Positions 1-23,029 of a stretch of 23,029 bases of DNA are shown here, in pieces. The notes beneath the pieces were generated by a model. The model saw only the letters and a program-made list of their open reading frames with translations, was not told the DNA's origin and ran no database searches. Within the stretch, counting starts at the first letter, position 1, and every line of letters begins with the position of its first letter. The translations under genes were made by a program, and so were the position numbers. The stretch comes from a virus (taxonomy: Duplodnaviria; Heunggongvirae; Uroviricota; Caudoviricetes): the IMG/VR virus record IMGVR_UViG_2703718857_000002; one strand, given 5' to 3'.

Positions 1-549
1 TCAGCTAGCTGGAAACTTTTTATACAGAGTTGAGAGCCCTACTCCATACGTTTTTGATACGCTTTGTCGTGATTCACCGGTTGCCATCCGCTCCCCCATT
101 TCCCGCCATTGCTCATCCGTGAACTTAGGCCTGCGACCACCAACTCGCCATTTTGCCCTGGCTACGGCCAGCCCTGCTAAGGTACGTTCGCTATTAAGAT
201 CAGATTCATATTGTGCTGCGGAAAGGATGTTACGAAAGTTATAGCGGCCGCTGGCTGTTTTGAGATCCACGCCATCGGTAATACTGCGGAAGTTGATACC
301 CTTTTCCTGTAACTGCTGGAACATCAACAGCGCATGCAGAACGTTGCGGCCTATCCTGTCCAGCTTCCAGACCACCAGTTCATCCCCCGGCTGCATAGTG
401 GCGATCAGCCGTTTTAGAACCGGCCGATTCGATTTCCTCCCGCTGGCATGCTCTTCAAAAATTTTCTCACAACCCGCTGACTTGAGCGCCGTTAGTTGCA
501 ATTCAGTGTCCTGGTGGTTTGTTGATACTCGGGCATAACCGTAAATCAT
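1..549 (-). CDS. Serine recombinase of the DNA-invertase (Hin/Gin/Cin/Pin) family, 182 aa
   Basis: Complete ORF: ATG at 549..547, stop TGA at 3..1. N-terminus MIYGYARVSTNHQD carries the catalytic-serine motif of small serine recombinases; C-terminal HTH (SVSKTYGVGLSTLYKKF). AGGAGAA Shine-Dalgarno lies within the upstream palindrome. Family assignment is from established knowledge of the family. Confidence 0.9.
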   Translation of the reverse strand: MIYGYARVSTNHQDTELQLTALKSAGCEKIFEEHASGRKSNRPVLKRLIATMQPGDELVVWKLDRIGRNVLHALLMFQQLQEKGINFRSITDGVDLKTASGRYNFRNILSAAQYESDLNSERTLAGLAVARAKWRVGGRRPKFTDEQWREMGERMATGESRQSVSKTYGVGLSTLYKKFPAS

Positions 550-554
550 GAGTG

Positions 555-581
555 CTTCTCCTGTTGTAAAAACAGGAGAAG
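555..581. promoter_or_regulatory. 27-bp perfect inverted repeat directly 5' of the invertase start codon
   Basis: Arms CTTCTCCTGTT and AACAGGAGAAG are exact reverse complements around a GTAAA centre. The arm nearest the gene contains the invertase Shine-Dalgarno. Function (operator, RBS-sequestering hairpin, or recombination site) is not determinable from sequence. Confidence 0.5.
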
Positions 582-740
582 AGGCGAAATATCACCTGAT
601 TCAGAAAAATATTTGAAAGGTTGGTTTGGGAGAAGCGGCAAAACGGGATGTGGGAACAGGGGAAAATCAGATACCGGATATGGCTTTTTTTGCCAGTGGT
701 GATGGATGGATGAAATTACCCAACGGTAAAATCCTGCAAT

Positions 741-977
741 ATGGTCGAGGTGCGGTTACGCCGCCGAGGTATCGATACAATTGTGTTATGTGGGATCTCG
801 ACCAATATCGGTGTTGAATCCACCGCCCGCAATGCCTGGGAACTTGGCTTTAATCTGGTGATTGCCGAAGACGCCTGTAGTGCCGCCAGCGCCGAGCAAC
901 ACAATAACAGCATTAATCATATCTACCCGCGCATCGCCCGTGTGCGTAGCGTGGAAGAGATCCTTCACGCGTTATGA
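741..977 (+). pseudogene. 3' fragment of an isochorismatase-family hydrolase gene (yecD-like), about 78 codons
   Basis: Translation ...[39 protein letters not shown]... matches the conserved Cys-containing core of isochorismatase-like hydrolases. In-frame homology begins only around nt 744 (stop in frame at 711..713); upstream sequence is in a different frame and unrelated, so the gene is 5'-truncated or frameshifted. Confidence 0.6.
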
Positions 978-1078
978 TTTACATCGGTCTGCCGCAATGG
1001 TCGCATCCTAAATGGGTGCGGTTGGGGATCACCAGCCTTGAAGAGTATGCCCGTCACTTTAACTGCGTGACGCGGTAA
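974..1078 (+). pseudogene. 5' fragment (34 codons) of a DUF72-family gene (yecE-like)
   Basis: ATG at 974 overlaps the TGA of the preceding fragment (ATGA), the arrangement expected for adjacent host genes. Translation [32 protein letters not shown] then terminates after 2 more codons; a full DUF72 protein is several-fold longer. Family identification is from memory and unverified. Confidence 0.5.
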
Positions 1079-1241
1079 ATTTAAAAATCGACAAATATCG
1101 TCCAGGAGCGCCATTTTTAATGGCTGGAGATAGCAACCAATATGCGTTGTTTGCAATATTTGGCGAATTTTACCGATTTCTCATGCCCCACCCATGCCCC
1201 AAGACACCTGCCACGCGAAATCTTCCATCAATTGACTGCAA

Positions 1242-1559
1242 CTAAACAACCGCATTGTCCTGGCGCACATCGCAGATAGTAAACGTCACGACGCCGATGA
1301 CAGTAACATCGTCCAGGGCTTCGCCCTCGATCGCTTCACCATCTTCAGTAATCAGTGACTTTCCTCTCAGCGTGGCAAGCTCCGTCCCGCCGCCGTGCTG
1401 TATAAGTAGTTGGCTACCCTGCTTTGGCTTCAGGGAGATATCCAGTACAACGTAACCACCAGATCGCTCGAAAACTAGCGTGTTTGGGCCGACATTGCAG
1501 ATCGAGTTAACAGACAACCTTTGCTCAACGTAGTCCGTCGCTGGTGAAGGGAATCCCAT
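1242..1559 (-). CDS. Hypothetical protein, 105 aa; distal gene of a LexA-box-controlled two-gene operon
   Basis: ATG at 1559..1557 overlaps the TAA of the upstream gene by 1 nt (TAATG); GGAGGG Shine-Dalgarno upstream. Translation MGFPSPATDYVEQRLSVNSICNV... with no family I can recognise. Confidence 0.55.
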   Translation of the reverse strand: MGFPSPATDYVEQRLSVNSICNVGPNTLVFERSGGYVVLDISLKPKQGSQLLIQHGGGTELATLRGKSLITEDGEAIEGEALDDVTVIGVVTFTICDVRQDNAVV

Positions 1560-1798
1560 TAGATCACCCTCCCCATGTTGGCCATCATCCACAAACGGTT
1601 TTCGCTATGGTCGGTGGTTTTGTCGACAAAGTACGTCTGCTCTCTAGATATCCACGCATTAGCCTCTGCGTCGGTAAAGTGCAGCCCACGCCGGCGCAGC
1701 GCTGACACAAAATCCTTTGTGTGCAGGTACTGGTAGCCTTTGGAGTTGCGCAATACCGACTCGCGGAAAGCCGCGGCGATGTCTGACTGTCGAAGCAT
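1559..1798 (-). CDS. Hypothetical protein, 79 aa; proximal gene of a LexA-box-controlled operon
   Basis: ATG at 1798..1796 preceded by GGAGGG at about -8; the GTG at 1819 used in the ORF track lies inside the LexA box and is less likely. Translation MLRQSDIAAAFRESVLRNSKGYQYLHTKDF...; no family recognised. Confidence 0.6.
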   Translation of the reverse strand: MLRQSDIAAAFRESVLRNSKGYQYLHTKDFVSALRRRGLHFTDAEANAWISREQTYFVDKTTDHSENRLWMMANMGRVI

Positions 1799-1816
1799 GA
1801 TCTGCCCTCCGATAAA

Positions 1817-1836
1817 CACTGTTTTTATATACAGTA
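1817..1836. promoter_or_regulatory. LexA (SOS) box CACTGTTTTTATATACAGTA
   Basis: CTGT-N8-ACAG with an AT-rich spacer; 17 of 20 positions match the enterobacterial consensus TACTGTATATATATACAGTA. Sits about 20 bp upstream of the 79-aa gene start, overlapping the likely -10 region. Confidence 0.7.
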
Positions 1837-2710: not shown

Positions 2711-4840
2711 TTACACCCACCCTAATAATTGAAATTTCTGGTAAATAAATTCAGCGTTTACGTCCGCGCCAGCCTGCAATGCATATTCAGGGGCGTTAGA
2801 TGTTTCTTTCGATTGGCTAGGATGCAGTCCGTCATACTTCAATGAAGTTGGAGGGATATCATTTCCAAAGTCAGAAACGTCCTGAGAATATGCTGGATTA
2901 TAGTTGTTTACGAAGTTTTCTCTCATATCAACACTATCAATTTCGCACCATAACTCAGGGTATTTCTTTTTAATCATGCTGTTTGATAACATGACGTTTG
3001 CATAACCTGCTGATCCACGGGGCTCAACACTGCTGTTAAAATCAGGCAGGATAATAACCTTCTGCCCAAGAGATTTAAGGTATTCAACTACACCAATAGT
3101 GTCGCTGAGAACCTGCATTGACTGGCTAATATTATTCCTTCCCATCCAGAAAATATTTATACATTCAGGGTGAAGAGGGAAAGATGTTCCTGCCGGAATT
3201 CCTCCGGTAATAGCACCAGTGGTCACCGGATCGCAAATGAATGGCACGGCAACAGGCACGTTAACCGCATCACCAGATGCATCACGTGTGAATGTGGCAT
3301 TAGTTCCATCCCATGAAAAATTGCCTGGAATGCCAGCCAGAGAACCGTGGAACGGCGTCGATGCTGCGGCGTTGGCAAAATAACTCAGTGGCCCCGGGTT
3401 TGCCGGAGAAAGAGTTACCGAACCGCTGGCAGGAATGCTGCCGCCAACTGGAACGTAATACGCTCTGCGCCCACCCTGAGCAGCAGCTGTGCCAACGCTT
3501 GTGCGTGAGCTTTTGCCAAAGTTATAGGCCGTGTAGCCGGTTAGCTCCTGCAGGTGTGTCAGCATACGGGGGTTATCAACCATTGAATGGCCCCACCCGC
3601 AAATGATCGGCCTGGACATTACAGAGTGCTCAGTCAGATCATTGATATAGCAATAATACTGCCCACCCGGTGCGCGATTAGTCTCCCTGTCCGATTGCCA
3701 GATAACCTTATCACCATCAACGCGTGGCAAGGTTTCATTACTGGATGTATTGGTTACACGAACCTGCTGACCTGTATCGCGATCAAACAGGAAAATCTGC
3801 TCATAGCCTTCTTTCTCTTCGCTAAATGCAATGTAATCAGGCTGACCTGAATTTGTCAGGTCCGATGATTTCAGCGACTCGATAACAACCAGGTTTTCAG
3901 ATGTGGATGCAGAAATGTATCCACTATCTGCATACTCATCAGGTGAGAGAAACGTTACTGACTCTGGAAGAGGTGATAATGCGTCAGTAACACCCTTTAC
4001 CTCTGTAAAATCGCTTCCTTCAATTACCGCATCGCCAACAACAATTTTGCTAAAATAAATGGTGGTGCCTTTAATGCCAACAATAATTCTATTGTTTTCA
4101 GAAAAAGTTGCTGAGTCATACCCTGAATCCGAAAATTCAGATATATCGACAAAAGTCGAAGCCTGTAAAAAAGGAACGATTCCAAGAAGGCTCTGCCCGG
4201 AAATTAAAATGTCGTTTCCTGAAAGGATTTCAGCAGCGAATTGATCTGCGCTGATTTCCCCCGCTCTGATTTTTTGGAAAAACCACTCGACACCTTTCCT
4301 GGATAGTAGTATTTTTTTATTTTCATCTAGTATAGCCTCTTCCACCCCAGAATCTTTATATTCATCAGGAGGAAAGAACTCTGACGCCTGTGTTATATTT
4401 AACAAAGGAGAGTAGGGATCAATAGCATCATCTACATACTTCTTAGATGGCATTTTTCTACCGGTGGGCTCAAGAGTGCCACCATTGTTAATTACTTCAA
4501 TAGCCAGCGCGCTATCGTCAGGGCTGCGGTAATACGTGGTAGAACCCACCGGGATATTCGCTATATCCGCCTGCGCCGCTGCCAGCGTCATGTATTGCCG
4601 GCTGAGAGGGATCAGGTTTTGGCGGGCTTCATCAATAACAGCGTCGGTAGCAGCTGCCATTTTTTTAGTAGCCCCAATTATCGTATCCCGGGCGTTACCA
4701 AAACGATCTATAAAAGTATCGCTTTCGCTGTTCAGGAAATCATCGTACGCCAGGGCGTTATCATTCAGATCCTTCATGCTATTTGAAGGTCTTGGATTGC
4801 CGGTATTATATCTTTTGTCCATACCTGTTCCTGTCTTCAT
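2711..4840 (-). CDS. Large protein (about 709 aa) with internal beta-rich repeats and a C-terminal SGNH/GDSL-like hydrolase motif set; putative receptor-binding esterase
   Basis: Long ORF; preferred start ATG 4840 or 4822 (the latter has AGGAACAGG upstream), since the first ATG at 4891 has no RBS. Residues about 165-400 hold at least 4 repeats with recurring (S/P)xDEYxDSGY...SEN. The C-terminal half has GHSM, FGKSS, GRNN and DGLHP in the order of SGNH blocks I, II, III and V. No signal peptide. Confidence 0.6.
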   Translation of the reverse strand: MKTGTGMDKRYNTGNPRPSNSMKDLNDNALAYDDFLNSESDTFIDRFGNARDTIIGATKKMAAATDAVIDEARQNLIPLSRQYMTLAAAQADIANIPVGSTTYYRSPDDSALAIEVINNGGTLEPTGRKMPSKKYVDDAIDPYSPLLNITQASEFFPPDEYKDSGVEEAILDENKKILLSRKGVEWFFQKIRAGEISADQFAAEILSGNDILISGQSLLGIVPFLQASTFVDISEFSDSGYDSATFSENNRIIVGIKGTTIYFSKIVVGDAVIEGSDFTEVKGVTDALSPLPESVTFLSPDEYADSGYISASTSENLVVIESLKSSDLTNSGQPDYIAFSEEKEGYEQIFLFDRDTGQQVRVTNTSSNETLPRVDGDKVIWQSDRETNRAPGGQYYCYINDLTEHSVMSRPIICGWGHSMVDNPRMLTHLQELTGYTAYNFGKSSRTSVGTAAAQGGRRAYYVPVGGSIPASGSVTLSPANPGPLSYFANAAASTPFHGSLAGIPGNFSWDGTNATFTRDASGDAVNVPVAVPFICDPVTTGAITGGIPAGTSFPLHPECINIFWMGRNNISQSMQVLSDTIGVVEYLKSLGQKVIILPDFNSSVEPRGSAGYANVMLSNSMIKKKYPELWCEIDSVDMRENFVNNYNPAYSQDVSDFGNDIPPTSLKYDGLHPSQSKETSNAPEYALQAGADVNAEFIYQKFQLLGWV

Positions 4841-4862
4841 CTTTTCAATGAAGCAATTAAGA

Positions 4863-4891
4863 TTGACGACCCGCCCCTTCAGGGCTAACAT
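4863..4891 (+). promoter_or_regulatory. Candidate sigma70 promoter for the regulator/acyltransferase operon
   Basis: TTGACG (4863..4868), 17-bp spacer, TAACAT (4886..4891), about 30 bp upstream of the ATG at 4924. The spacer contains a small GCCC...GGGC inverted repeat. Read by eye, not scored. Confidence 0.35.
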
Positions 4892-4923
4892 CGCCTTACG
4901 TGTTTAAACGGTTAAGTAAGAGA

Positions 4924-5187
4924 ATGATTTTAATAAATAAATACACTCCTCCAACGCAGGAAGATTTAGCCAGACTGAAATCCGCAATAAACTACTCCGG
5001 AAACCAAATGGCAGGGCTCGCAGGTGTAGCCAGCGATAGCCAATGGCGGAAATACACTGGCGGAGAGAGCCCCAGGGTAATGTCAAGACACATACTGTTT
5101 TATATTGCAGCTCAGCTTGTTCTGTCTGATGAGCAACTTAACAATGTAATAAATAAAATGCGCGATATTGGCGCGGAGATAAAATAA
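4924..5187 (+). CDS. Small XRE-type helix-turn-helix protein, 87 aa; putative regulator of the downstream acyltransferase
   Basis: ATG at 4924 with AAGAG-type Shine-Dalgarno (the ORF track starts at GTG 4900). Segment ...GNQMAGLAGVASDSQWRKYTGGESPRVMSRHILFYIAAQL... fits an XRE-like HTH pattern. Its stop overlaps the acyltransferase ATG (TAATG). Confidence 0.55.
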   Translation: MILINKYTPPTQEDLARLKSAINYSGNQMAGLAGVASDSQWRKYTGGESPRVMSRHILFYIAAQLVLSDEQLNNVINKMRDIGAEIK

Positions 5188-6278
5188 TGCTTGGCCTAAT
5201 AAGGTTTTTTTTGGCATCGTGCGTCATTGCTTTTCACTTAACGGCTCGCATACCTGCACTTGGCAACTTTGCAGTGAATTGCTTCTATGTTATCAGTGGT
5301 TTTTTAATAACATACATTTTGCATGAAACATACAAGTTCAACTTCTCTATGTTTTGGAAAAATAGAATACTGAGGTTATTCCCGGCATATATATTTTTTC
5401 TCGTCATGGGCTTTCTTATTATAAAATTAATTCCATCCGCAAAGGAATTCCACTCAAACTGGACAGGCAATTTCTTACCTGGAGATTTATTAGGAAACCT
5501 CTTAATCTTCCCCTGGGCTTTCCTTTCTGATAATGCTGTAGCAAATCCATTCGGTGCCTTTTCATCCATTTATCACTTTGCTATTGATGGTAATAGATTC
5601 AGAATAGTCACATCATCATGGTCAGTGGGTGTTGAGATAACATGTTATTTTTTATTGTGGCTTTTCATAGCCCGAAATAAATTTACAGCCATTACGTCGA
5701 TTCTGCTTTCACTGCTTTATCATGCTTACGTATATGTAGTACACCATTCTTTTGATATGGCGTATTTCCCATTCCTTGCTGCAACACTTCCTTTTAGCAT
5801 GGGTTCTCTGGGTTATTTTGCCCATAGAAAGTTCAAAGCTATGTATCTTTCTCCACACAAAGCTTTTTTAATAACATTTATTTGCATCGGGATTTTTATT
5901 ACCAATTGGTATTTATATACAATTAATGCATTAGGTCAGTACAACATAATACTTTACTACACCAATAATGTAATAGCATTGTTTACAACCCTGGTATTAT
6001 TAAAAATAAAGACAAACATACATCTTGAGAAAATACTCAAGTGGTTTGGTGACCTGGCCTATCCAATTTTTCTTTGTCAATATTTTGGTGGATTTCTAGC
6101 ATGGCTTGCTATTGGTGGTGAAAATCGTGGCTTATCCATCTTTTTATTAGGCTACCCAATATCAATTGCACTTGGGATCGTTTGTGTAATATTAATAGAC
6201 AAGCCACTAATTAAAATTAGAGCAAAAATAAGGGCGGACGCTCAAAGCAAAAATAATCAGGAAAACTCTTCAAGGTAA
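5187..6278 (+). CDS. Acyltransferase family 3 (AT3) integral membrane protein, 363 aa; probable O-antigen/LPS O-acetyltransferase (Oac/OafA-like)
   Basis: N-terminal His in the first hydrophobic segment (...VIAFHLTARIPALG...) and the VNCFYVISGFLIT motif typical of AT3 acyltransferases; multiple hydrophobic segments throughout. Gene body is visibly AT-rich, roughly one-third G+C by eye. The LPS substrate is inferred from the prophage tail-fibre context. Confidence 0.8.
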   Translation: MLGLIRFFLASCVIAFHLTARIPALGNFAVNCFYVISGFLITYILHETYKFNFSMFWKNRILRLFPAYIFFLVMGFLIIKLIPSAKEFHSNWTGNFLPGDLLGNLLIFPWAFLSDNAVANPFGAFSSIYHFAIDGNRFRIVTSSWSVGVEITCYFLLWLFIARNKFTAITSILLSLLYHAYVYVVHHSFDMAYFPFLAATLPFSMGSLGYFAHRKFKAMYLSPHKAFLITFICIGIFITNWYLYTINALGQYNIILYYTNNVIALFTTLVLLKIKTNIHLEKILKWFGDLAYPIFLCQYFGGFLAWLAIGGENRGLSIFLLGYPISIALGIVCVILIDKPLIKIRAKIRADAQSKNNQENSSR

Positions 6279-7042
6279 ACTAAACCATTCGCTCCTTTTC
6301 CTGATGAATAGTTACCATTCCCCCCGGCACCACCTGAGCCGGGGAAACCGCCATCATCGCCAGAACTACCGAAGTGGCCATTGCCACCCGTTGATGAAAA
6401 TGCAGATCCTCCAGCCCCGCCAATAAAAGCATCAGAACCATAATACAGACCACCTTGAGATATTCCGCCAGTAATATTTAAAATGTTCCCGCCACTTCCG
6501 ATACCTCCAGCAGGAACTGTAGCCCCGCCACCACTCCCTCCAGTAGCTGAGATTAAACTCCCGAACCTTGTATCACCACCATTCCCACCTTTAGACGAGA
6601 CACCAGCAGCAACAGCACTGCCACCAGTACCTATCGTCACAGATATAGTTTCGTTATCAGAAATATTAAATAACCCTTCCGAAAATCCACCAGCACAACC
6701 TCCAGATGCGCCCACACTAACTGGAGCATTCTGGCCACCTCCCCCCGCTCCCCAAACTTTCACCCGCACTCTTTTCGTCCCTTTAGTTGGAGTGTAAGTC
6801 CCTGACTTAGTAAAGGTGACAATATTAAGCAGGCGACCGCCACCAATCGCTTTAAGAACCTGTGAATCATCATCAGGATCAAGCTCAAGCCCCGCGCCCT
6901 CAACAACGTTTACCAGCTCACGCTGAAAGGTATTCATCATCTCAGCATTAATTATTGTCGGTGAAATACCATTAGCGACATTACCATTAGTGTATTCACC
7001 ATTAGCATCAGCGGTGTCAGTTGTACTGCCAACTTTTCTCAT
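6257..7042 (-). CDS. Glycine-rich tail fibre protein, 261 aa
   Basis: ATG at 7042..7040 with AAGAAGG Shine-Dalgarno. Lies immediately downstream of the gp48-like gene, where Mu-type fibres sit. N-terminal region ...ISPTIINAEMMNTFQRELVNVVEGAGLELD... is followed by a GGxGG-rich low-complexity C-terminal half. Its 3' end overlaps the acyltransferase 3' end by 22 bp (convergent). Confidence 0.7.
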   Translation of the reverse strand: MRKVGSTTDTADANGEYTNGNVANGISPTIINAEMMNTFQRELVNVVEGAGLELDPDDDSQVLKAIGGGRLLNIVTFTKSGTYTPTKGTKRVRVKVWGAGGGGQNAPVSVGASGGCAGGFSEGLFNISDNETISVTIGTGGSAVAAGVSSKGGNGGDTRFGSLISATGGSGGGATVPAGGIGSGGNILNITGGISQGGLYYGSDAFIGGAGGSAFSSTGGNGHFGSSGDDGGFPGSGGAGGNGNYSSGKGANGLVYLEEFS

Positions 7043-7068
7043 ATAAACCTTCTTTTTAAATGTCTGAA

Positions 7069-7743
7069 TTAAACGTAACCAGAAGCGATATCAAATATTC
7101 TGGCAAACTCAGGCGTGACTTCGTAAACCCCCTCATCGTTAAAACCGAAATAGATATAGCCGAATTTGACCAGGGTGTATGAGGGGGCGAGGGCATTAAT
7201 CCGGCATTCAAGCTGACGATTACCCCAGGAACGTAATGGATCGCCACAATAACTCAGACCTGCACGGGCATAAGTTATCGTTGTGTCTTCCGCCTCTACC
7301 AGCCAGACAAATGGCCAGTCATCCCCATTTAGCCCGTCACCACATACCGATAAGCCAGCACGCGCCTGCCGGTATTCCTTAATCGAAATCGTATAACCCA
7401 TTGCTGCGGCAATACTGATGAAATAGCTCTTTGACTGCCCGCCGGTACTGATGAGTTTCGATACAATGGCAGACTGACGCTTCGCAATCGTATCCACTTC
7501 GCCAATCGAGCAATCATCAGGTAAGCCGAGTGTTTTTTCCCACTCGGTGAGCATAATCGTCGCAGTTTTTGGAAAGGCACCGCGCAGCAATGCAAGTGCG
7601 TCGTTATCACTACGCTGGAAACTGGCCGCAATGGCCCGCAGCACAGCAGCCTGAACAGCTTTTGGATCCCGTGTCCACGCTCGGCCGGTGGGGATAAGCG
7701 CCTGCAGTGCCTTCTGATAATCGTCTGTTGAGAAAAGGCTCAT
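7069..7743 (-). CDS. Baseplate protein, DUF2313 / Mu gp48-like (YmfQ-like), 224 aa
   Basis: N-terminus MSLFSTDDYQKALQALIPTGRAWTRDP...TEWEKTLGLPDDC matches the conserved start of Mu gp48-family proteins. ATGA overlap with the upstream J-like gene. Confidence 0.75.
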   Translation of the reverse strand: MSLFSTDDYQKALQALIPTGRAWTRDPKAVQAAVLRAIAASFQRSDNDALALLRGAFPKTATIMLTEWEKTLGLPDDCSIGEVDTIAKRQSAIVSKLISTGGQSKSYFISIAAAMGYTISIKEYRQARAGLSVCGDGLNGDDWPFVWLVEAEDTTITYARAGLSYCGDPLRSWGNRQLECRINALAPSYTLVKFGYIYFGFNDEGVYEVTPEFARIFDIASGYV

Positions 7744-8888
7744 GTGTAGTTCACCTCGCCACGAACAGCCAGCTCCCCAACTCCCGGCTCAATATTCGCA
7801 GAAGGCGACACAAGGATATAACCTGAAGTACCGGCAACATCCCCTATCGCGCGGTTGAGATCTGAAAGGTAAATTTTCCCTGTGCCGAGCGGGTTAGCAG
7901 ATTCAAACAATACCCCGTCAATCGCATCAGCAATGGCCGCAGTCGTTGCGCTGTCGGCATCAGATATCCCGCTTATTTCAAAATCGATAACGCGTTCGAT
8001 GGGAGAGCAGACATAGTTAAGGGAGGTAACCGGCGCAAGCGGATACATATAATCGGCAACTCTCCCCTGATCCCCGGTGGCTTTTACAGCCCCCCACTCT
8101 TCCAGTTGAGAGACACCGTCAGTTCCTGCAGGGAATCCATGATTGGTTTTATCATCGCCGTCGCACATGATGTAAATCACCACGGTACCCGGCCCCATCC
8201 CCCGGCGCCGTATCCATGCCCTGGTGATCCCCGACACGGATAAAGCCCAGCTTTTATAATCAGTGTCACTCCCGCCCTGCGGGGGATTCTGATACGCCAG
8301 CAGACCACGTAATCGGAAATCCTCTTCACTTTCAATGTTGGCGCCGCCGGTGGCGGGCTCAATCAGCGTAACCGAGCTGTCTATGCCGGGGGCATTAGCA
8401 TCCAGTGTAAGAATGGTGCCAGCATCGGCATTTCCGGAAGCGCCTCCTCCTGTCACATCGTCTGTGATATCCGGCAAAACCGCTGTTACAGCAACCGACG
8501 CACTGCCAGCAGTGTTTATCGTTATGGCATCATCGGTTGTGTACTGGTAACCATCATCACGGTTTAACACCGCCCCTTTTGACAGTGTTTTCCCCGGCGT
8601 TCCGGTAACGGTCGCCGCCGGAGAGCGTGCTGCCGTTGCGGCTTTTCGGTAAATCTGCTTTAGCGCCATCCATCCGGCAAGCCACTCATCGGTAGAGGTG
8701 AAAGGCGTGCTCTGACGGGCAATATAATCCAGGTAGGCGTAGTGCAGATGGGCCATGCCCGCATCCATATCAGCGAGCACCTTAAGGTTGCCAAACCGTA
8801 ACAGCGCGCCAACACTTTCAAGCTCTGCCTGCATAAACTGGCGATTCTCCTGCCGGAGCTCGCTCAGTGTTTTCCGCTTAAATGGCAT
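7740..8888 (-). CDS. Baseplate J-like protein (Mu gp47 / P2 gpJ family), 382 aa
   Basis: Size, position between the gp46-like and gp48-like genes, and overall sequence character fit the baseplate J family. Overlapping start/stop on both sides indicates a coupled operon. Confidence 0.75.
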   Translation of the reverse strand: MPFKRKTLSELRQENRQFMQAELESVGALLRFGNLKVLADMDAGMAHLHYAYLDYIARQSTPFTSTDEWLAGWMALKQIYRKAATAARSPAATVTGTPGKTLSKGAVLNRDDGYQYTTDDAITINTAGSASVAVTAVLPDITDDVTGGGASGNADAGTILTLDANAPGIDSSVTLIEPATGGANIESEEDFRLRGLLAYQNPPQGGSDTDYKSWALSVSGITRAWIRRRGMGPGTVVIYIMCDGDDKTNHGFPAGTDGVSQLEEWGAVKATGDQGRVADYMYPLAPVTSLNYVCSPIERVIDFEISGISDADSATTAAIADAIDGVLFESANPLGTGKIYLSDLNRAIGDVAGTSGYILVSPSANIEPGVGELAVRGEVNYT

Positions 8889-9327
8889 TATTCAGTTGCT
8901 CCCATAGCCAGAAGAATTTGAACTCCTGCCAGTCCCCCGCCGGCGGCAAATACCGGATGATGAGGTTCAGCCTATTCGGGAAAACAATCTCTGACTGAGC
9001 CTCTATCGCTGCTGCAATACCATCCGACTTCATCCAGGCCAGAGCCTCTTCGGCATAATCTTCAGCTCTCATCGCCACTTCGCGCGTCAGTTTTTCACGC
9101 CGCAGTAGCCACAGCCTTGAGCCAATATTCCGGTCGTTGTCCAGATCCCCCCACCAGCCGCGGCGGTCAGTTCCTTCATAATCATCATCAGCGCGCGCCA
9201 GTCCGTCAGTAAACAAACTGATAATTATGGCCGTGTGCATATCATTCTCAGATGTCAGTACGCCGTTACCGGTTTGCCAGTCAGCATGAATGGCATCCAC
9301 ATCCCAGAATGAGGAAATATCACTCAT
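8878..9327 (-). CDS. Baseplate protein, Mu gp46-like (GP46 family), 149 aa
   Basis: Size and position between the spike and J-like genes; 4-bp overlap with the spike gene. Family call by synteny plus pattern. Confidence 0.65.
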   Translation of the reverse strand: MSDISSFWDVDAIHADWQTGNGVLTSENDMHTAIIISLFTDGLARADDDYEGTDRRGWWGDLDNDRNIGSRLWLLRREKLTREVAMRAEDYAEEALAWMKSDGIAAAIEAQSEIVFPNRLNLIIRYLPPAGDWQEFKFFWLWEQLNNAI

Positions 9328-9905
9328 ACCTGACTCTCTGTTTTTTCGCTTATGATCGTGCTATCGCCGGACTGAACTTTTTTAACGTCATGGTCATGAT
9401 CGTTGTGAGCATCCCGCAGCGCTTTGAGCGTTGAATTGTTCGTCTCGCAGTTATCGATGATGTCACCCGTCACCAGGAGTTTGGGGGTAACCAGCTTTAC
9501 CTGTTCCGTTGCCGTCGCGGTGATGTTTCTGGCATTATTGATCTCTACATCTTTGCCTTTCGCATCAATGAAAATTCCCTCCTCGGTCAGATGAATATTC
9601 ATCCCCTGCTGGTTATAGACCACGGTTTCGCCTGGCTTAAGCCCGGTATACCGGAAGCTTTGATGGTTAGAGGCAATGACGACAGGACTGGAGCGGTCCC
9701 CGCCGAGAAAGGCAATAAGCACATCCGATCCCGCCGGTAACCCCGATGAAAAACCAAAATCAGAGAGCCGTGGGGCGCTGGCCACTTCCAGCGGAGTCTG
9801 GTACTGGATTTCCTGCACAACCCCGCTATCTTTCTGCGTGGTAATACGGCCAATGCCCAGCATGCCGGCGATGCGCGTGGCCGATTTCTTTAAATTTTGA
9901 TTCAT
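9324..9905 (-). CDS. Baseplate central spike / assembly protein V (Mu gp45 / P2 gpV-like), 193 aa
   Basis: Size, synteny, and a C-terminal His-rich motif HNDHDHD (nt 9387..9407) of the kind that coordinates metal at the tip of contractile-tail spikes. Confidence 0.7.
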   Translation of the reverse strand: MNQNLKKSATRIAGMLGIGRITTQKDSGVVQEIQYQTPLEVASAPRLSDFGFSSGLPAGSDVLIAFLGGDRSSPVVIASNHQSFRYTGLKPGETVVYNQQGMNIHLTEEGIFIDAKGKDVEINNARNITATATEQVKLVTPKLLVTGDIIDNCETNNSTLKALRDAHNDHDHDVKKVQSGDSTIISEKTESQV

Positions 9906-10777
9906 TGGTTTAGTCCGGGTATTTGCTGGTAGAAAGCATAAGGCTGGACAGCGAAAGCCTCCGGGGGCATCAGATAAAGGCGCGCATGGGTGCCGTCACT
10001 GTCTCTGATATAAGTCACCTCTGCGATAAGCAATTCGGTGTCAGGCAGCTGCAGACTCGGGATGTTGACCGGGATAAGCGTATTCGGCTCCCATAATTTC
10101 CCGGATTTATCGCGCCAGGAATCAATCGTCACCGTTAACTGACGGGAACGGCCGTATCGGCGGTTCATCTCCCAGTCAATCGCTCGCTGAGCCTGTTGTG
10201 AAGCCATCAGTGTACTTTCAACAATAATGATCCGTTTTCGGTAACGCATACTGGCCGCCTCAGGATCGCGGGCCGTCGCCAGCGTCACCGAATCATAAGC
10301 CGTATCTGGCGAGAATCCTGCAATCGGCGAAATGCTCATCGATACGCCGACGTAATCAGAAAAGCGGTCAGCCATCGAACGGCGGTAATAAGCCTGTTCG
10401 ATATTTACCCCTTCTGCGATACCGCTGGCCGCGCGCTTTGTCCCCACCCGGGTCAGAAATAAGTTACCGTCAGGCTGATCGTAATAAAGCAATGCCGACC
10501 AGCGGGAGACACGATCAAGTATTTCCTGTGGCGATTCCCCCCAGTTCAGGGAAAATTGCGGAACTTTCACCAGATCATCAACGTCTGTACTTACGCCAAT
10601 GTTGTAATGGGATGCGAGGCGGGAGGCTATATCAAGCGCATTACTGTTATTGATGACGTTATTTGGCCATTCAGCAGAGCAATCAACGAGATCTGCGCAC
10701 TTACTGCGGCCTGAGGCTCTGACTTCATGGCGCGAACGGGAAATAGCAGGCGACCAGTCATCAACATACCCCGTCAC
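9902..10777 (-). pseudogene. 5'-truncated baseplate hub gene (Mu gp44 / P2 gpD family), 291 codons retained
   Basis: Frame opens at a GTG at 10777 that overlaps the portal stop codon in a different frame. C-terminal region ...LLIAEVTYIRDSDGTHARLYLMPPEAF resembles the conserved end of gpD-family proteins. Full-length homologues are about 380 aa (from memory), implying loss of roughly 90 N-terminal residues. Confidence 0.5.
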
Positions 10778-11931
10778 TACCAGGTACCGGATGAGAAATT
10801 ACGCAATACTGCAGACTCGAAAACCTCAAAGTTGCTGTAAGGGCGGGCAGCGTTGACCGTTGTTATTCTCTCCCCTGGATAAAGGATCGGCATACGGGCG
10901 CCATTCTGCAGCGTCAAACGGCGATCATTATGAAACTCTGCACGACCATCCTGGTATGCTCCCAATCCCTCTTCGAAGTTTTCCCCCAGCGCGGACTGGA
11001 TCATTTCGGGATCGTATGGAGACTCAATATACGCGGCGAAGATAGCATTCAGAATTGCTGCTTCCAGCTCGCTCTGGTCGTACTTCACCAGCATCTTCAG
11101 ACGTTGCACTACTGGAGTCAGAATGCCATTCCCCCGATGCTGAGCTCCACGCTCATGGTCAAAGTCGTGCACAACGTGCGGGCGCCCCCATGCGGTTTCG
11201 CGCGGGATTCGTCGCCATGTCATTGTTTTGGCGCCACTCCACCAGTCACCGATATGTGCTTCACGTATGTGATAAGCCACAGGTGCGCCGTCAGCATCAA
11301 TTTCAACGCCGCCGCGGATATTCGGCATATCAAAATTCTGCTGCGGGTTACTGAGTCTGTCGGGATCAACAACCTGCACCGTCGTGGCATAACGCCCCTT
11401 ACCTGGTCCAAGGCGATCGGTGCGATACTGAAGCACCATCAGGGCATCGCCATCAATCAGCTTGTGGCGAAAGGCCAGACGCAACATTTGTGGAACGGTT
11501 AGCTTGCGCTCAACGTCACAATAACGGCCTGTGTCGTATGCCCAGGTTCTCCAGTGGGAAGCGAGTGCTTTTCCGTACTCTTCCGCCCATACTGCGTCAA
11601 AACTTTTATTACCTGTCATCATCCGTAATACACGATAGTCAGGCTTCATGATCGGACGGAAATTGGCGCCGACCGCATTATCAAGCAGGCGAGTTATGGC
11701 ACCATTGGCCCATCCATCATTTCGGACCAGATCCCGCGCACGGGAAACTATACGGTCACGGTAGATATTAATTTCGTTATCCGGTGACCATAGTGCGGGC
11801 TGCCAGTTCGCCAGTTGATCGCTGAAGGAATCCGCGGCGTCATATGGCACCCGGCTACCGCCCGTCAACATGCTGGGTTTTGGTGCCTGATAAGGTCTCC
11901 CGTCAGGACCAAGGATTTGCACTTTATTCAT
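10777..11931 (-). pseudogene. 3'-truncated portal gene (lambda gpB family), 384 codons retained
   Basis: N-terminus MNKVQILGPDGRPY, the VERKLT motif and ...AILNAIFAAYIES... parallel lambda gpB; the ORF stops at ...NFEVFESAVLRNFSSGTW, where lambda-family portals continue for about 140 more residues (from memory). Start overlaps the gpW-like stop by 1 nt. Confidence 0.65.
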
Positions 11932-12194
11932 CAGAATCTGAACCTCACTGGCTTCCGTGGCCGGGCGACAATTCCCAGTTGCGCCTGCAGCAACTGAATC
12001 AGCGCCAGCAGGTCGGCGAGAGAGCTTTGCTGATAGGAGACAGAGCGCGTCCCATCACCCTGCGTATAGGAGAATGAGACGCCACGGCTGCCGGTAGTCA
12101 GGTCGATATAAGCCTGCTGCGCTTTCTGCAGAGCGTCTCTGAGCTGCTCATCAGTCATCCCACCAGCAAGTAAGCTCGTGTTTCGGTTAAACAT
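11931..12194 (-). CDS. Head-tail joining protein, lambda gpW-like, 87 aa
   Basis: Small ORF between terminase large subunit and portal, the lambda Nu1-A-W-B order. Translation ...LRDALQKAQQAYIDLTTGSRGVSFSYTQGDGTRSVSY... resembles gpW. Confidence 0.7.
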   Translation of the reverse strand: MFNRNTSLLAGGMTDEQLRDALQKAQQAYIDLTTGSRGVSFSYTQGDGTRSVSYQQSSLADLLALIQLLQAQLGIVARPRKPVRFRF

Positions 12195-12202
12195 GGTTTT
12201 CC

Positions 12203-14335: not shown

Positions 14336-14834
14336 TCAGCACCTCTGTCATCCTGTCCGCCGGCACATTCAGATCGGCGGCTATCAGCGGTGCCACGCGT
14401 GAAGGCCAGTTCAGCCAGGCATCACGCTGCTGGCGAAAGGCGTTAAACAGAACCTCCTCGGCGATGGCCAATTCAATTGTCTGGCCGCTGTCTTTTTCAT
14501 ACTGGAGCTTTGCCTGCAGGGCCATGTAATTTTCACGGATCCGCGCGGCCTCTTCCCTGGAAAGGACTGCACCTTCTGTAAACATTATCTGGCGAACGGT
14601 TTCATCAATTTCATCGTCGCCATCATTCCGGGGTGCTGGGGCTTTTTTCTTCTTCGCGTTTGATGCCCGCGGATCTTTTCCATCACGGTTTTTCTTCAGC
14701 GCGGCATCGCTCGCCTCAACATCAATCAGGTCGCCATCCATGACGATAAACCGACCAGCCTTGATCCATCGGCCAATAGTCTTGCGATCGACGCCTGAAT
14801 GTTGCGCGTACTGACTCTGGTTCATCGTGGTCAT
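14271..14834 (-). CDS. Terminase small subunit (lambda Nu1-like), 187 aa
   Basis: N-terminal winged-HTH region MNQSQYAQHSGVDRKTIGRWIKAGRF resembles Nu1. Overlaps the 5' end of the large-subunit gene by 65 nt, as in lambda. Start could be ATG 14834 or the ATG 3 codons downstream. Confidence 0.8.
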   Translation of the reverse strand: MTTMNQSQYAQHSGVDRKTIGRWIKAGRFIVMDGDLIDVEASDAALKKNRDGKDPRASNAKKKKAPAPRNDGDDEIDETVRQIMFTEGAVLSREEAARIRENYMALQAKLQYEKDSGQTIELAIAEEVLFNAFRQQRDAWLNWPSRVAPLIAADLNVPADRMTEVLIEHVHKHISVLGEPEFNPAED

Positions 14835-14981
14835 GGGACATCACCTGGGACATTTTTGGGGTGGGACATTTACCTGGGACATTTTTTCAATGTCCCACAC
14901 GAATGTCCCACTGGAATAAATGGAATAATCCGTGCTGGCTCTGGCGTGGCTGGCGATCCCTTGGGGTGGGACATGGGACAC
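14834..14981. repeat. Array of TGGGACA(T/C) repeats (5 direct TGGGACAT plus 1 TGGGACAC, 2 inverted copies) immediately upstream of the terminase small-subunit gene; candidate cosB-like terminase-binding region
   Basis: TGGGACAT at 14834, 14846, 14862, 14875 and 14967; TGGGACAC at 14974; inverted ATGTCCCA at 14890 and 14903. Location matches where lambda-type phages carry Nu1 binding sites next to cos. Confidence 0.5.
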
Positions 14982-15071
14982 AAAATAAAAGTTTGTAGCT
15001 AGGAAAACACTGCGGCGCGCAATGCCCGTGCCTTACAAAAGGCTCAGGAAGGACCCAAAACCCCTGGGGGG

Positions 15072-15713: not shown

Positions 15714-15762
15714 ATCATTGACCACCTAGTTACAGTAATTAAGATCAGTTTGCTCATAAAGT

Positions 15763-15791
15763 TGACAATAAAAAACCGCCCGTAGGCGGTT
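15763..15791 (-). terminator. Rho-independent terminator after the 134-aa moron
   Basis: Minus-strand hairpin AACCGCC-TACG-GGCGGTT followed by TTTTTATTG; overlaps the stop codon of the 134-aa gene. Confidence 0.7.
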
Positions 15792-16194
15792 AGTCGAACA
15801 TTTTATCAAGTTGCTTAGCTAGAGCTCGGTTAAACAGCTCCTTCGAAACTGTCATCAGCGTGCCCATACTGGCATCTTTGAATCCGGTTTTTAATGTTGC
15901 CCAAACCTCTTTGTTACGGAGAGCATCCAAGAAGTCATGCCCCATCGCGGTCAATCGCAAGGGCATTACAGCCCAGTGAGTCATTCCGTCTAAAGACTGA
16001 ATAGCACCAAAGCCGGGCTCCCCATCACTCCTGATAATCAGCCCTCTATCCTCAAGCAAACGCATATGAAACACAAATGTGTCAGTTTCACAATTGAACC
16101 CTAAATCCTTTAATCGAATAATATCGGTATCAGGTGAATCCGATGCCTCGAAAGCCTCGAGCAAACCTTTAAGGTATTCTTGATCTATTTGCAT
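15790..16194 (-). CDS. Hypothetical protein, 134 aa (moron between Rz and cos)
   Basis: ATG at 16194 with GGAGGGG Shine-Dalgarno and its own terminator. Translation MQIDQEYLKGLLEAFEASDSPDTDIIRLKDLGF...; no family recognised with confidence. Confidence 0.65.
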   Translation of the reverse strand: MQIDQEYLKGLLEAFEASDSPDTDIIRLKDLGFNCETDTFVFHMRLLEDRGLIIRSDGEPGFGAIQSLDGMTHWAVMPLRLTAMGHDFLDALRNKEVWATLKTGFKDASMGTLMTVSKELFNRALAKQLDKMFD

Positions 16195-19139: not shown

Positions 19140-19141
19140 AA

Positions 19142-21641: not shown

Positions 21642-21839
21642 ATGGATGATATTTTGGTAACGTCAGACCTGACCAGTCGCTACAAAATTTCACGCAAAAC
21701 CCTTTGGTCATGGCAAAGTGCAGACACAATGCCTCGGGGCTTCGTATGCCCGTTCCCACCCCCTGACTGGCCCGGCAACCCTAACCGCTGGCGCTCTGAG
21801 TCAATCAAAGAGTGGGAGGATAAAAAGAAGATAAATTAA
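21642..21839 (+). CDS. AlpA/Xis-like small DNA-binding protein, 65 aa
   Basis: [25 protein letters not shown]...[11 protein letters not shown] fits the AlpA/excisionase-type HTH pattern. ATG at 21642 with GGAGAGAG Shine-Dalgarno (the ORF track starts at TTG 21597). 3' end overlaps the integrase 3' end (convergent). Confidence 0.55.
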
Positions 21840-23029
21840 CTGAAGGGCTCTCCGATGATCTCTTCAAGATGGCTCTGCCAAACGCGGAGCCAGTGTTTCT
21901 GATCATCGATATAGTCATGAAGGTTGTAATGCGCCATAACCCCCACCATCTGATGCCCGAGCAGCTTTTCAATTACGTGCGGCGGGCAACCTAACTCAGA
22001 GAGATTTGTGGCTATCGTCCGCCTCATATCATGAAGCGACCACTCTGCCATACCTGTTCCATTCCAAATAGAACGGGCGTAATTGGATGCCACAGGTGAA
22101 TGAACGGGCGAATCTTTGATCCCGCCATCAATTTTACGTTGTGAAGTCACCAGGTGATTGGTGTTTATTTTCTTGAGGTGATTTCTGACCAGGTTAACGG
22201 CGGCGTCTGAGAGTCCCCTTCTAATATGTACCCGAGTTTTATAACTGCCCGCAGGCACGACCCACTCATTATCATCCAATCGAAACCATGATCTCTCACT
22301 AAGTCGAATCTCAGCCGTACGGCATCCGGTAAGCATAATAAATTTCACCAGGAAAACGGACTCTATCGACATATGGCTTTTCAACCACTGATAGATTTTG
22401 CGCAGATCGTCATCGTCCATCCTGCGAGTTCTCTTTTTAGGCTTTTGCCCGACATCAGATGGCAGTAATCCCTCGAGTGGGTTTGAGGCGATCACACTTC
22501 TGTTAACGCAGAACCTAAACGCCCGTTTGCACAGCGAAAGCATGTAATGAGCCATCACCCTGCTTTCTATAGAATCGAAGACGTTGATCCAGTGCATTTT
22601 CGCTGTGTTATCGACTTTGACATTCTTCATCGGTTCGGCGATATGTTTCTCAAACACCTGGCGATAGTAATCGACTTTAACTAGCCCGTTAGCGATACAG
22701 TGCCTTTCAATCCAGTAATTGAACGCTTCGGCAACGGACATCGCTTCCTGTCGGGTCTGCTTATCCAGCTTCACCTGCTCTCGCGGATCCAGTCCCTCAG
22801 TTAACCAGTTTCTGAATTGTTGGCGACGCTCTCTTGCCTGGGTGATACTCATTGCAGGATAATCACCAACATTGAGTTTTACCGCTTTACCGGCCCAGCG
22901 ATACCGATAGAAAAATGATATTTTTCCGGCCTGGCTGATTCTGGCGTTGAGCCCGTGCGAATCAGAAATAATCTCGATATCATCTCTTTTCTTGCCGAGC
23001 GCCTTCCTGAGCTTTGTGTCGGTGATCAT
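21836..23029 (-). CDS. int: Tyrosine integrase, P4-type, 397 aa; start coincides with the window edge
   Basis: N-terminal arm-binding region (...[32 protein letters not shown]...) and C-terminal catalytic region (...[11 protein letters not shown]...[18 protein letters not shown] with Arg, His-x-x-Arg and Tyr). The ATG sits at the last 3 nt of the window, so a slightly longer N-terminus cannot be excluded. Confidence 0.9.

What the first reader, a model, noticed from the sequence alone, without database searches (positions are those of the whole stretch)
626..1078. Fragments of two adjacent host-type genes wedged between the invertase and the prophage cargo
An isochorismatase-family 3' end (741..977) and a DUF72-family 5' start (974..1078) overlap by ATGA exactly as intact neighbouring genes would, but both are truncated. 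Phage-type genes lie on both sides. This may mark the eroded left boundary of the prophage, with the invertase belonging to a second element, or a rearrangement that trapped a piece of chromosome inside the element.
Basis: partly seen in the sequence, partly recalled or inferred. Interest (0 to 1): 0.55.

Follow-up and report, generated by a model that had tools for sequence, protein, structure and literature searches.

The report
Fossil yecE phage junction in phi80-type prophage
The two gene fragments are a 313-base piece of the E. coli chromosome (end of yecD, start of yecE) still joined to an old phage attachment site; phage phi80 and its relatives carry the same piece, it is already annotated and has been used in experiments, and in this window it marks the seam where two different phages were spliced together.

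Summary
Window 756-1069 is chromosomal yecD (nt 346-567) plus yecE (nt 1-96). It ends in the 21-bp att core used by yecE-integrating phages (1049-1069), so it is a fossil attR with its host flank.

On the left it joins a tail-fibre stub (635-763) at an 8-bp microhomology, TTACGCCG. The stub sits beside an orphan Pin-type invertase that has only one crossover site (609-634).

The whole 1-1109 module is in phage phi80 (97%, annotated as pseudogenes PHI80_28/29 plus pinL) and in mEp237 (99%). It is not a boundary of the present element. In the closest genomes the element lies between yciI and kch, flanked by the 17-bp phi80 att repeat, and its integrase is identical to phi80 Int.

The window matches mEp237 exactly up to 1078. 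From 1079 it matches prophages that sit at the native yecE site, so the trapped fragment is the crossover point of a hybrid prophage, which is now defective.

De Paepe et al. (2014) measured phi80 recombining with chromosomal yecD through this homology. Verdict: real, explained and already known. The only modest new points are the recombinant seam and a likely local-rearrangement origin in a yecE lysogen.

The parts
1..549 (-). Pin/Hin-type serine DNA invertase (pinL homologue), 182 aa
   Evidence: Pfam Resolvase E=7.7e-38 plus HTH_7. 97% identical to phi80 pinL and 99% to the mEp237 invertase at the DNA level.
555..581 (.). Small hairpin (phi80 'IR3': 555-565 / 571-581) between the invertase start and the crossover site
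   Evidence: Annotated as repeat_region IR3 in JX871397. The window is identical to phi80 over 550-608.
609..634 (.). Single invertase crossover site (hix/gix/pix-like, TTCTCCCAAACCAACCTTTCAAATAT on the - strand); no partner site
   Evidence: One match in the window at up to 3 mismatches, 0 expected by chance. No partner at up to 8 mismatches in the window, and none at up to 7 mismatches in the fetched stretches around the module in phi80 and mEp237. Intact segments L007 and L017 have an inverted partner.
635..755 (+). Stub of an alternative tail-fibre C-terminus (Sv'-type, 'gp53-like/tail collar'), first ~45 codons only
   Evidence: Aligns to the intact gene next to an invertase in an O157 P2-like prophage (L007 2895..3305) up to window 763. 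Annotated as pseudogene PHI80_29 in phi80.
756..763 (.). Illegitimate-recombination joint: 8-bp microhomology TTACGCCG shared by the tail-fibre gene and yecD
   Evidence: Three-way alignment of the window, an intact tail-fibre gene and K-12 yecD. Tail-fibre homology ends at 763 and yecD homology begins at 756.
764..977 (+). 3' end of chromosomal yecD (with the microhomology, nt 346-567 of 567), isochorismatase family
   Evidence: 203/210 identical to K-12 and 209/210 to the allele in the PPyecE_EH1910 record. Pfam Isochorismatase positions 107-175 of 175.
974..1069 (+). 5' end of chromosomal yecE (nt 1-96 of 819, DUF72), overlapping yecD by ATGA
   Evidence: Alignment to K-12 ends at 1069. It is the same yecE stub (nt 1-96) that stx2 lysogens carry next to yecD (PMC10657854), and it is annotated as PHI80_28 in phi80.
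1049..1069 (.). Fossil att core of yecE-integrating phages (GCCCGTCACTTTAACTGCGTG), in B-O-P' (attR) configuration
   Evidence: A 21-bp direct repeat at both ends of the 43-kb yecE prophage of strain 98202. Annotated as a 21-bp duplication at the same junction in LC567835. Unique in the window.
1070..1241 (.). P' arm and spacer of a yecE-type phage; the mosaic switch from mEp237-like to yecE-prophage-like sequence falls between 1055 and 1078 (992-1078 conservatively)
   Evidence: Identity tables by segment and by variable site: the window matches mEp237 at 100% over 550-1078 and matches 98202/JNQH497 at 50/50 over 1079-1128.
1242..1819 (-). UmuD-like gene and a phrog_3893 gene, the first genes of the yecE-type phage's attR end
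   Evidence: PHROG hits at 1.3e-46 and 1.2e-39. Colinear with prophages beside native yecD in strains 98202 and JNQH497.
21836..23029 (-). phi80-type tyrosine integrase; it defines the element's real attachment site (yciI/kch) and is not cognate to the trapped yecE core
   Evidence: 397/397 identical to phi80 Int. Essentially unrelated to the yecE-phage integrase.

Best explanation
Window 756-1078 is a molecular fossil: the right-hand junction (attR) of a phage that was once integrated in the chromosomal gene yecE, together with 313 bp of the flanking chromosome (the 3' end of yecD and the first 96 nt of yecE).

A single illegitimate recombination at an 8-bp microhomology (TTACGCCG) joined this piece to the start of an invertible tail-fibre segment lying next to a Pin-type invertase. 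The resulting block is invertase, one crossover site, tail-fibre stub, 'yecD, yecE', att core. It became fixed beside attP in the phi80/mEp237 lineage and travels with those phages.

The block encodes nothing functional. The invertase has lost its second site and its substrate genes, and both host genes are truncated.

What the block does is provide homology. It matches the chromosomal flank of any prophage resident at yecE, so a phi80-type phage can recombine there and take over that prophage's tail end. The element in this window is such a recombinant. It is mEp237-type from the invertase to position 1078, yecE-phage-type from 1079 to about 20761, and mEp237/phi80-type again from 20762 (the recT 3' half, xis and int). 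It has since been crippled by internal deletions.

Shown here: the identity and junctions of the pieces, the single origin, the mosaic seam and the true attachment site. Inferred: the order of events, and that the seam arose by homologous recombination.
For: Identity and junctions.

The module is part of phi80 and mEp237 and is annotated there.

The true boundaries are the phi80 att repeats at yciI and kch, and Int is identical to phi80 Int.

Single capture: the stub|'yecD joint is 100% identical in 9 of 5426 genomes and occurs in 5 IMG/VR contigs. All five phage-borne copies compared share two private substitutions, 782T and 991G, that are absent from the four chromosomal copies compared.

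An attR of yecE phages: intact yecD, the yecE' stub, the core and the same phage arm are contiguous at the native locus in strains 98202, JNQH497 and EC2001. Window 4427-10785 is 98.9% colinear with the JNQH497 yecE prophage.

phi80's own 'yecD-to-dinL stretch is 96.7% colinear with the EC2001 yecE prophage. That prophage also has a 91-95% identical invertase and crossover site, plus an invertible tail-fibre segment, within 1.6 kb of yecD.

Seam at the fragment.

Experimental precedent: phi80 recombines with chromosomal yecD through this 300-bp, 96%-identical homology at 6e-7 per phage (PMC3945230).

yecE as a phage insertion site with the same stub of yecE nt 1-96: PMC10657854 and the LC567835 annotation.
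Against: The route from a yecE lysogen to the phi80 gene order needs at least two steps, and no intermediate was found.
- No tandem duplication with two attR copies turned up.
- No yecE prophage was found whose invertase-proximal cassette is the exact gp53-like type of the stub; EC2001's cassette next to the invertase differs after window 635.

Only one exchange event at the seam is documented, because the window class and 22F46 share it. A recurrent 'adaptor' role therefore rests on one natural case plus the laboratory assay.

The window itself does not contain the phi80 att cores. Its location at yciI/kch is inferred from genomes identical to its two ends.
Confidence: 0.85

Rival explanations
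1. The seam at 1055-1078 was made by site-specific recombination, not homologous recombination. On this view a yecE-phage integrase, supplied in trans, exchanged strands between the trapped attR core and the attP or attR of a yecE-type phage, so the fossil site is still a live docking site.
For: The breakpoint interval (1055-1078 against 98202/JNQH497-type donors) overlaps the 21-bp core and lies at the extreme right end of about 320 bp of homology. The core is intact, 20/21 to the lysogen core and 21/21 to the degenerate pattern.
Against: If the donor carried T at 1054 and the EH1910-like yecD allele, the interval widens to 992-1078, which is unremarkable for homologous recombination. Only one event is available. 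The element's own Int is phi80-type and unrelated to the yecE integrase. Homologous recombination at this homology has been measured directly.
Confidence: 0.2
2. The host DNA was captured by classical Campbell-type aberrant excision of a whole yecE prophage (as in lambda gal/bio), rather than by a local duplication or circle at the attR junction.
For: The host DNA is contiguous with the att core in B-O-P' form, and the novel joint uses microhomology. Both are hallmarks of specialised-transducing phage formation (established knowledge of lambda gal/bio).
Against: It requires the invertase and Sv' cassette to have been near the int end of the ancestral yecE prophage. In the yecE prophage that has them (EC2001) they lie at the attR end, 1.6 kb from yecD in direct orientation. 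The polarity of the joint (stub on the left, 'yecD on the right) is that of a duplication or circle product of those two nearby sites.
Confidence: 0.3
3. The fragments sit at the native yecD-yecE locus and mark the eroded edge of the prophage, with the invertase belonging to a second element inserted into yecD.
For: The gene order 'yecD-yecE'-phage is exactly that of a real yecE lysogen.
Against: Genomes identical to the window's ends place it between yciI and kch within phi80 att repeats. One of those genomes (B18271) has an intact yecD at its native locus elsewhere. The block is inside the genomes of the isolated phages phi80 and mEp237.
Confidence: 0.02
4. The fragments are an expressed, selected cargo (a moron): a 78-aa isochorismatase C-terminal peptide and/or a 34-aa YecE N-terminal peptide with a function for the phage or the lysogen.
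For: Both ORFs are open, and the block is conserved at 97-100% among phi80, mEp237 and this element.
Against: - Conservation is explained by recent common descent. The only private changes are two substitutions, both at third codon positions and synonymous by my reading of the sequence.
- The Pfam match covers only the last 69 of 175 profile positions.
- The ATG at 741 is fortuitous tail-fibre sequence in another frame.
- No promoter-like signal above chance in 500-1900.
- Both phi80 annotators and PGAP call them pseudogenes.
Confidence: 0.03

Closest known systems
Phage phi80/Lula att-proximal block pinL - PHI80_29 - PHI80_28 (GenBank JX871397, 23391-24499) and the same block in mEp237 (JQ182730)
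   Same: Same sequence: 97% (phi80) and 99% (mEp237) over window 1-1109. The window is 100% identical to mEp237 over 550-1078, with the same stub|'yecD joint, the same private SNPs, the same position next to the phi80 attP, and an identical Int.
   Different: To the right of 1078 the window carries a different phage arm and a UmuD-like gene plus Mu-like tail module from a yecE-type phage, instead of dinL/msgA and lambda-like tail fibres. The phi80 record does not annotate the 'yecD part or the att core.
Specialised-transducing phage formation (lambda gal / lambda bio type capture of DNA flanking attB)
   Same: Host DNA immediately flanking the attachment site is carried in the phage, still joined to a hybrid att core, with a new illegitimate joint at a short microhomology.
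   Different: Only 313 bp were captured, with no intact gene. The carrier now uses a different integrase and att (phi80 type). No loss of phage genes can be tied to the event, and the joint's polarity fits a local duplication or circle better than whole-prophage mis-excision.
Hin/Gin/Cin/Pin invertible tail-fibre switches (Mu G segment, P1 C segment, e14 P region)
   Same: A serine invertase adjacent to a crossover site that lies at the start of an alternative tail-fibre C-terminus. The intact relatives L007 and L017 show the full arrangement.
   Different: Here there is one site only, 45 codons of one cassette and no tfa genes, so there is nothing to invert.
Mosaic formation between temperate phages and resident prophages by relaxed homologous recombination (De Paepe et al. 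2014, PMC3945230)
   Same: The very same yecD homology in phi80 was shown to support phage-chromosome recombination. The window looks like a natural product of such an exchange with a prophage resident next to yecD.
   Different: The paper tested marker pick-up at yecD in a strain without a yecE prophage. In the sections I read (search hits plus section 10) it does not describe the homology as a fossil attR or report natural hybrids.

Membership tests
phi80/mEp237 pinL-'yecD-yecE' module | Colinear, near-identical sequence to JX871397 23391-24499 | tested here: met
   97.0% over 1109 nt to phi80 and 99.0-99.1% to mEp237.
phi80/mEp237 pinL-'yecD-yecE' module | Identical tail-fibre-stub|'yecD joint and shared derived substitutions | tested here: met
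   The joint is 100% identical in all 9 genomes that have it. 782T and 991G are shared by all phage-borne copies compared.
phi80/mEp237 pinL-'yecD-yecE' module | Lies next to the phi80-type attP/int, and the prophage sits at yciI-kch | tested here: met
   Int is 397/397 identical to phi80 Int. The 17-bp att repeat flanks the element in L012 and L001. The window itself stops short of the att cores.
Specialised-transduction-type host DNA capture | Captured DNA is the natural chromosomal neighbour of the attB used by that phage type and is contiguous with the att core | tested here: met
   Contiguous yecD, yecE' and core at native loci occupied by prophages.
Specialised-transduction-type host DNA capture | Novel joint made by illegitimate recombination | tested here: met
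   8-bp microhomology TTACGCCG between unrelated parents.
Specialised-transduction-type host DNA capture | Reciprocal loss of phage DNA from the opposite prophage end (classical aberrant excision) | not testable with these tools
   The ancestral phage is unknown. The integration module has since been replaced by the phi80 type.
Hin/Gin/Cin/Pin invertible switch | Serine invertase with Resolvase and HTH_7 domains | tested here: met
   Pfam hits at 7.7e-38 and 1.5e-09.
Hin/Gin/Cin/Pin invertible switch | Two crossover sites in inverted orientation | tested here: not met
   Only 609-634. No partner at up to 8 mismatches, and no conserved half-site on the other strand.
Hin/Gin/Cin/Pin invertible switch | Alternative tail-fibre C-termini with tail-fibre assembly genes between the sites | tested here: not met
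   Only a stub of about 45 codons, cut at 756-763.
Isochorismatase family (YecD) | Complete catalytic domain | tested here: not met
   Only profile positions 107-175 of 175, which is nt 346-567 of the 567-nt gene.
DUF72 (YecE) | DUF72 domain present | tested here: not met
   Only 32 codons of 272 and no Pfam hit. Identity rests on DNA homology.

The most novel reading that the evidence does not exclude
The trapped attR-plus-flank is more than a scar. On this reading it works as a universal adaptor. Because it matches the chromosomal flank and the att core of whatever phage sits at yecE, it would let phi80-type phages repeatedly swap their entire tail and host-range end with any yecE-resident prophage (Stx phages, Mu-like-tailed phages, Klebsiella-type phages). 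The swap would possibly be catalysed site-specifically by the resident phage's integrase acting on the still-intact 21-bp core.
Probability: 0.2. Interest if true: 0.5.

Novelty: already known. Interest (0 to 1): 0.22.

Why it matters
The finding is a clean, fully traceable example of how a temperate phage fixes a piece of host chromosome, and of how that piece later guides module exchange with other prophages. It also affects annotation and prophage-boundary calling. A host-gene fragment next to an att-like core inside a prophage need not be an element boundary, and here the real boundary lies beyond the invertase. It opens no new biology. The block is annotated in phi80, and its recombination potential was measured in 2014.

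Tried and rejected
- Partner crossover site for the invertase: none in the window (up to 8 mismatches) or in the fetched 8-9 kb stretches around the module in phi80 and mEp237 (up to 7 mismatches). I therefore rejected an active inversion switch.
- Second copy of the yecE att core in the window, which would indicate a nested yecE-type prophage with both ends: none.
- Exact phi80 'attP core' as annotated (ACACTTTCTTAAATTGT): found on only one side of the element. The true repeat is offset by a few bases, ATTTAAGAAAGTGTTCT.
- phi80's dinL side against the Stx-type PPyecE_EH1910 end: colinear only through the arm, so that prophage type is not the donor. The EC2001 type is colinear at 96.7%.
- Scan of GTDB species-representative genomes for the exact joint: 0 hits.
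- IMG/VR locus L023 has the joint at the same coordinates as the window but belongs to the phi80 class and is not the source. L020 is 100% identical over the 1069 nt held.
- The phi80 genome paper (Rotman 2012, PMC3510586) is not held, so I could not check how its authors interpreted PHI80_28/29.
- Pfam gave nothing for the 34-aa yecE' ORF, the 63-aa stub ORF, the UmuD-like protein or its neighbour. PHROGs identified the last two.
- Promoter and terminator scan of 500-1900: nothing above chance.

Full report
**What is in the sequence**

Window 1..549 (- strand) encodes a 182-aa serine invertase with Resolvase and HTH_7 domains. At 609-634 there is one 26-bp crossover site of the hix/gix/pix type. 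It is unique in the window (0 expected by chance), and no partner was found at up to 8 mismatches.

An ORF opens at this site (626..817). Its first ~45 codons match the start of an alternative tail-fibre C-terminus. Intact copies, annotated 'gp53-like domain-containing protein', sit beside an invertase in complete invertible segments, for example in an O157:H7 P2-like prophage with the order invertase, Sv', tfa, tfa', main tail-fibre gene.

A three-way alignment shows that tail-fibre homology runs to window 763 and yecD homology starts at 756. The two parents share only the 8-bp TTACGCCG. That is an illegitimate-recombination joint.

From there to 1069 the window is chromosomal:
- nt 346-567 of yecD, then nt 1-96 of yecE, with the natural ATGA overlap. 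It is 96.3% identical to K-12 over 323 nt.
- The translated yecD piece hits Pfam Isochorismatase, but only over profile positions 107-175 of 175.
- The stop of the 34-aa yecE' ORF (1076-1078) is phage-arm sequence.

**The right end of the host piece is a phage attachment core**

In strain 98202 a 43-kb prophage splits yecE. The order on one side is yecD, yecE' stub, prophage tail end. On the other side it is xis, int, then the rest of yecE. The two ends share the 21-bp repeat GCCCGCCACTTTAACTGCGTG.

- The window carries this core at 1049-1069 with one difference, and only once.
- GenBank LC567835 (PPyecE_EH1910) annotates a 21-bp duplication at this junction as produced by insertion.
- yecE is a recognised Stx-phage insertion site. 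Lysogens show a 111-bp remnant next to yecD that matches yecE nt 1-96 (PMC10657854), the same 96 nt as here.

Window 756-1078 is therefore a B-O-P' junction (attR) of a yecE-integrating phage with 313 bp of its chromosomal flank.

**It is not a boundary of the present element**

The whole block 1-1109 is present in two isolated phages, phi80 (97%) and mEp237 (99%). It lies there between the tail-fibre/dinI region and attP. The phi80 record annotates pinL, PHI80_29 ('internal fragment, phage tail collar domain protein, pseudogene') and PHI80_28 ('N-terminal fragment, DUF72, pseudogene').

- Only 9 of 5426 complete E. coli genomes contain the stub|'yecD joint, and all 9 are 100% identical across it. 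In all five of those inspected the block sits beside yciI.
- Five IMG/VR contigs also carry the joint. None of the GTDB species representatives does.
- In the two genomes identical to the window's ends (B18271 by blastn; CM148361 at 100% over the stretches searched), the element lies between yciI and kch.
- It is flanked by the 17-bp direct repeat ATTTAAGAAAGTGTTCT, which matches phi80 attP.
- The window's integrase is 397/397 identical to phi80 Int and unrelated to the yecE-phage integrase.
- B18271 has an intact yecD at its native locus. There yecE is itself split by a ~9-kb prophage remnant.

**One capture, then at least one exchange**

All five phage-borne copies compared (window, mEp237, phi80, SZQ1, 22F46) share two substitutions, 782T and 991G. 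None of the four chromosomal copies compared has them. Otherwise the phage-borne copies carry the yecD allele seen in the PPyecE_EH1910 record rather than the K-12 allele. Together with the identical joint, this indicates a single capture.

To the right of the core the copies fall into two classes:
- phi80, mEp237, SZQ1 and relatives continue into a dinI/msgA gene.
- The window, B18271, CM148361, 22F46 and 23CRST046 continue into a UmuD-like gene.

The window is 100% identical to mEp237 over 550-1078. From 1079 it is identical to the yecE-resident prophages of strains 98202 and JNQH497 (50/50 over 1079-1128), whereas mEp237 drops to 30/50. The breakpoint is 1055-1078 relative to those donors, or 992-1078 if the donor shared the T at 1054 and the EH1910-like allele. 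Either way it falls at the right end of the trapped fragment, on or beside the core.

**The rest of the window confirms a hybrid**

- Window 4427-10785 is 98.9% colinear with the JNQH497 prophage, which sits at native yecE (aspS, yecD, yecE' stub, prophage).
- At about 10785 a truncated baseplate-hub ORF abuts a truncated portal ORF, and roughly 10.8 kb of capsid, sheath, tube and tape-measure genes are missing.
- Next come terminase, lysis genes, Q, NinG and NinB. The ORFs of 90 aa or more that I scanned include no repressor or replication gene.
- At 20762 the sequence becomes 99.96% mEp237: the 3' half of recT, then xis and int.

The element is a defective recombinant. Its two ends come from an mEp237/phi80-type phage and its interior from a yecE-type phage.

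**How the block probably arose**

Four genomes have phi80's own sequence beside an intact chromosomal yecD. It runs from the microhomology point in yecD through yecE', the core and the arm to almost the end of dinL, as one colinear piece at about 97%.

In one of them (EC2001) the yecE-resident prophage continues dinI, invertase, crossover site, Sv', tfa, tfa', Sv, Sc. Its invertase plus site is 94.7% identical to the window's (91% to phi80's), and its tail-fibre constant part is 86.6% identical to phi80 gene 25.

Every component of the phi80 block therefore exists within a few kb at the attR end of such a lysogen. yecD and the invertase-proximal cassette lie about 1.6 kb apart in direct orientation. 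Recombination between two direct microhomologies gives a deletion, or the reciprocal duplication or circle. The observed joint has the stub on the left and 'yecD on the right, which is the polarity of the duplication or circle product.

I therefore favour a local microhomology-mediated duplication or circle across the attR junction of a yecE lysogen. Normal excision, replacement of the integration module by the phi80 type, and loss of the second invertase cassette would have followed. This ordering is inference:
- No intermediate was found.
- EC2001's cassette next to the invertase differs from the stub after window 635.
- Classical Campbell-type aberrant excision remains a rival.

**How it works now**

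The block has no coding function. The invertase lacks a second site and substrate genes. The host genes are fragments, and no promoter-like signal exceeds chance.

Its demonstrable property is homology. De Paepe et al. [quoted passage not shown] 96% mean identity over 300 bp' as a phi80-chromosome homology 'near attP'. They measured recombinants at 6e-7 per phage, and a recA deletion reduced this only about two-fold.

Any prophage resident at yecE lies directly beside that homology. A crossover there, plus a second one in the early region, transfers the resident phage's tail end to a phi80-type backbone, and the window shows exactly this arrangement. Whether the natural crossover was homologous or catalysed at the intact core by a yecE-phage integrase cannot be decided from one event.

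**Comparison with what is known, and verdict**

The block is the same entity as phi80's pinL-PHI80_29-PHI80_28 region and meets every feature tested for that membership. It resembles specialised-transducing capture of att-flanking DNA. It fails the definition of an active Hin/Gin/Pin switch, because it has one site and no cassettes.

The finding is real and its anatomy is now precise, but it is already annotated and has been exploited experimentally. The modest additions here are:
- recognising the fragment as a fossil yecE attR;
- the 8-bp joint;
- the evidence for a local origin in a yecE lysogen;
- a natural hybrid whose seam lies at the fossil site.

Noticed in passing
window 9902-11931 (joint at about 10777-10785): Internal deletion joint. 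A truncated baseplate-hub ORF (9902..10777) abuts a truncated portal ORF (10777..11931). Compared with the JNQH497 yecE prophage, about 10.8 kb of capsid, sheath, tube and tape-measure genes are missing, so the element cannot make virions.
   Followed up: partly
window 20762-21319: Second mosaic or deletion joint, inside recT. Only the C-terminal 158 aa of RecT remain. From 20762 onward the sequence is 99.96% mEp237. Genomes B18271 and CM148361 keep full recE and recT but lack window 8243-20761, so they are a different deletion derivative of the same hybrid.
   Followed up: partly
L009 43964-44743; L016 635-1414: yecE-type phages rebuild the disrupted yecE. A phage-encoded N-terminus replaces the native residues upstream of the core region, and its start codon overlaps the integrase stop, giving an annotated 259-aa DUF72 protein. 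PMC10657854 reports a similar rebuilt gene (816 bp) in stx2 O26 lysogens.
   Followed up: partly
L018 7332-16775 (strain B18271 native yecE) versus L001 20195-21010: The host of the near-identical element also carries a ~9-kb remnant of a 98202-type prophage at native yecE. The yecD-3'/yecE'/attR/UmuD-like stretch is therefore present twice in one chromosome, in inverted orientation and about 630 kb apart. That is a potential substrate for a large inversion.
   Followed up: no
window 1-105: The last 35 codons of the invertase form a mosaic boundary. Homology of EC2001, Citrobacter phage Omnitron and phage SKA5 starts at 105/106. mEpX1 matches only 3-389 and HK225 matches 1-632.
   Followed up: no
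window 2711-6278: A 726-aa tail fibre/spike (PGAP calls it 'TolB family' here, and the related protein in other strains 'SGNH/GDSL hydrolase') lies next to an oppositely oriented O-acetyltransferase (5187..6278, + strand). This looks like a serotype-conversion or receptor-modifying cargo within the tail cluster.
   Followed up: no
window 1242-1819: A UmuD-like gene (phrog_3469, no Pfam hit) and a small phrog_3893 gene form a conserved pair at the attR end of yecE-type phages in both E. coli and Klebsiella phages such as vB_VIPKPNMC05, Mulock and GZ7.
   Followed up: no
window 555-581: A perfect 11-bp hairpin (CTTCTCCTGTT / AACAGGAGAAG), annotated IR3 in phi80, sits between the invertase start codon and the crossover site. 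Its role is unknown.
   Followed up: no
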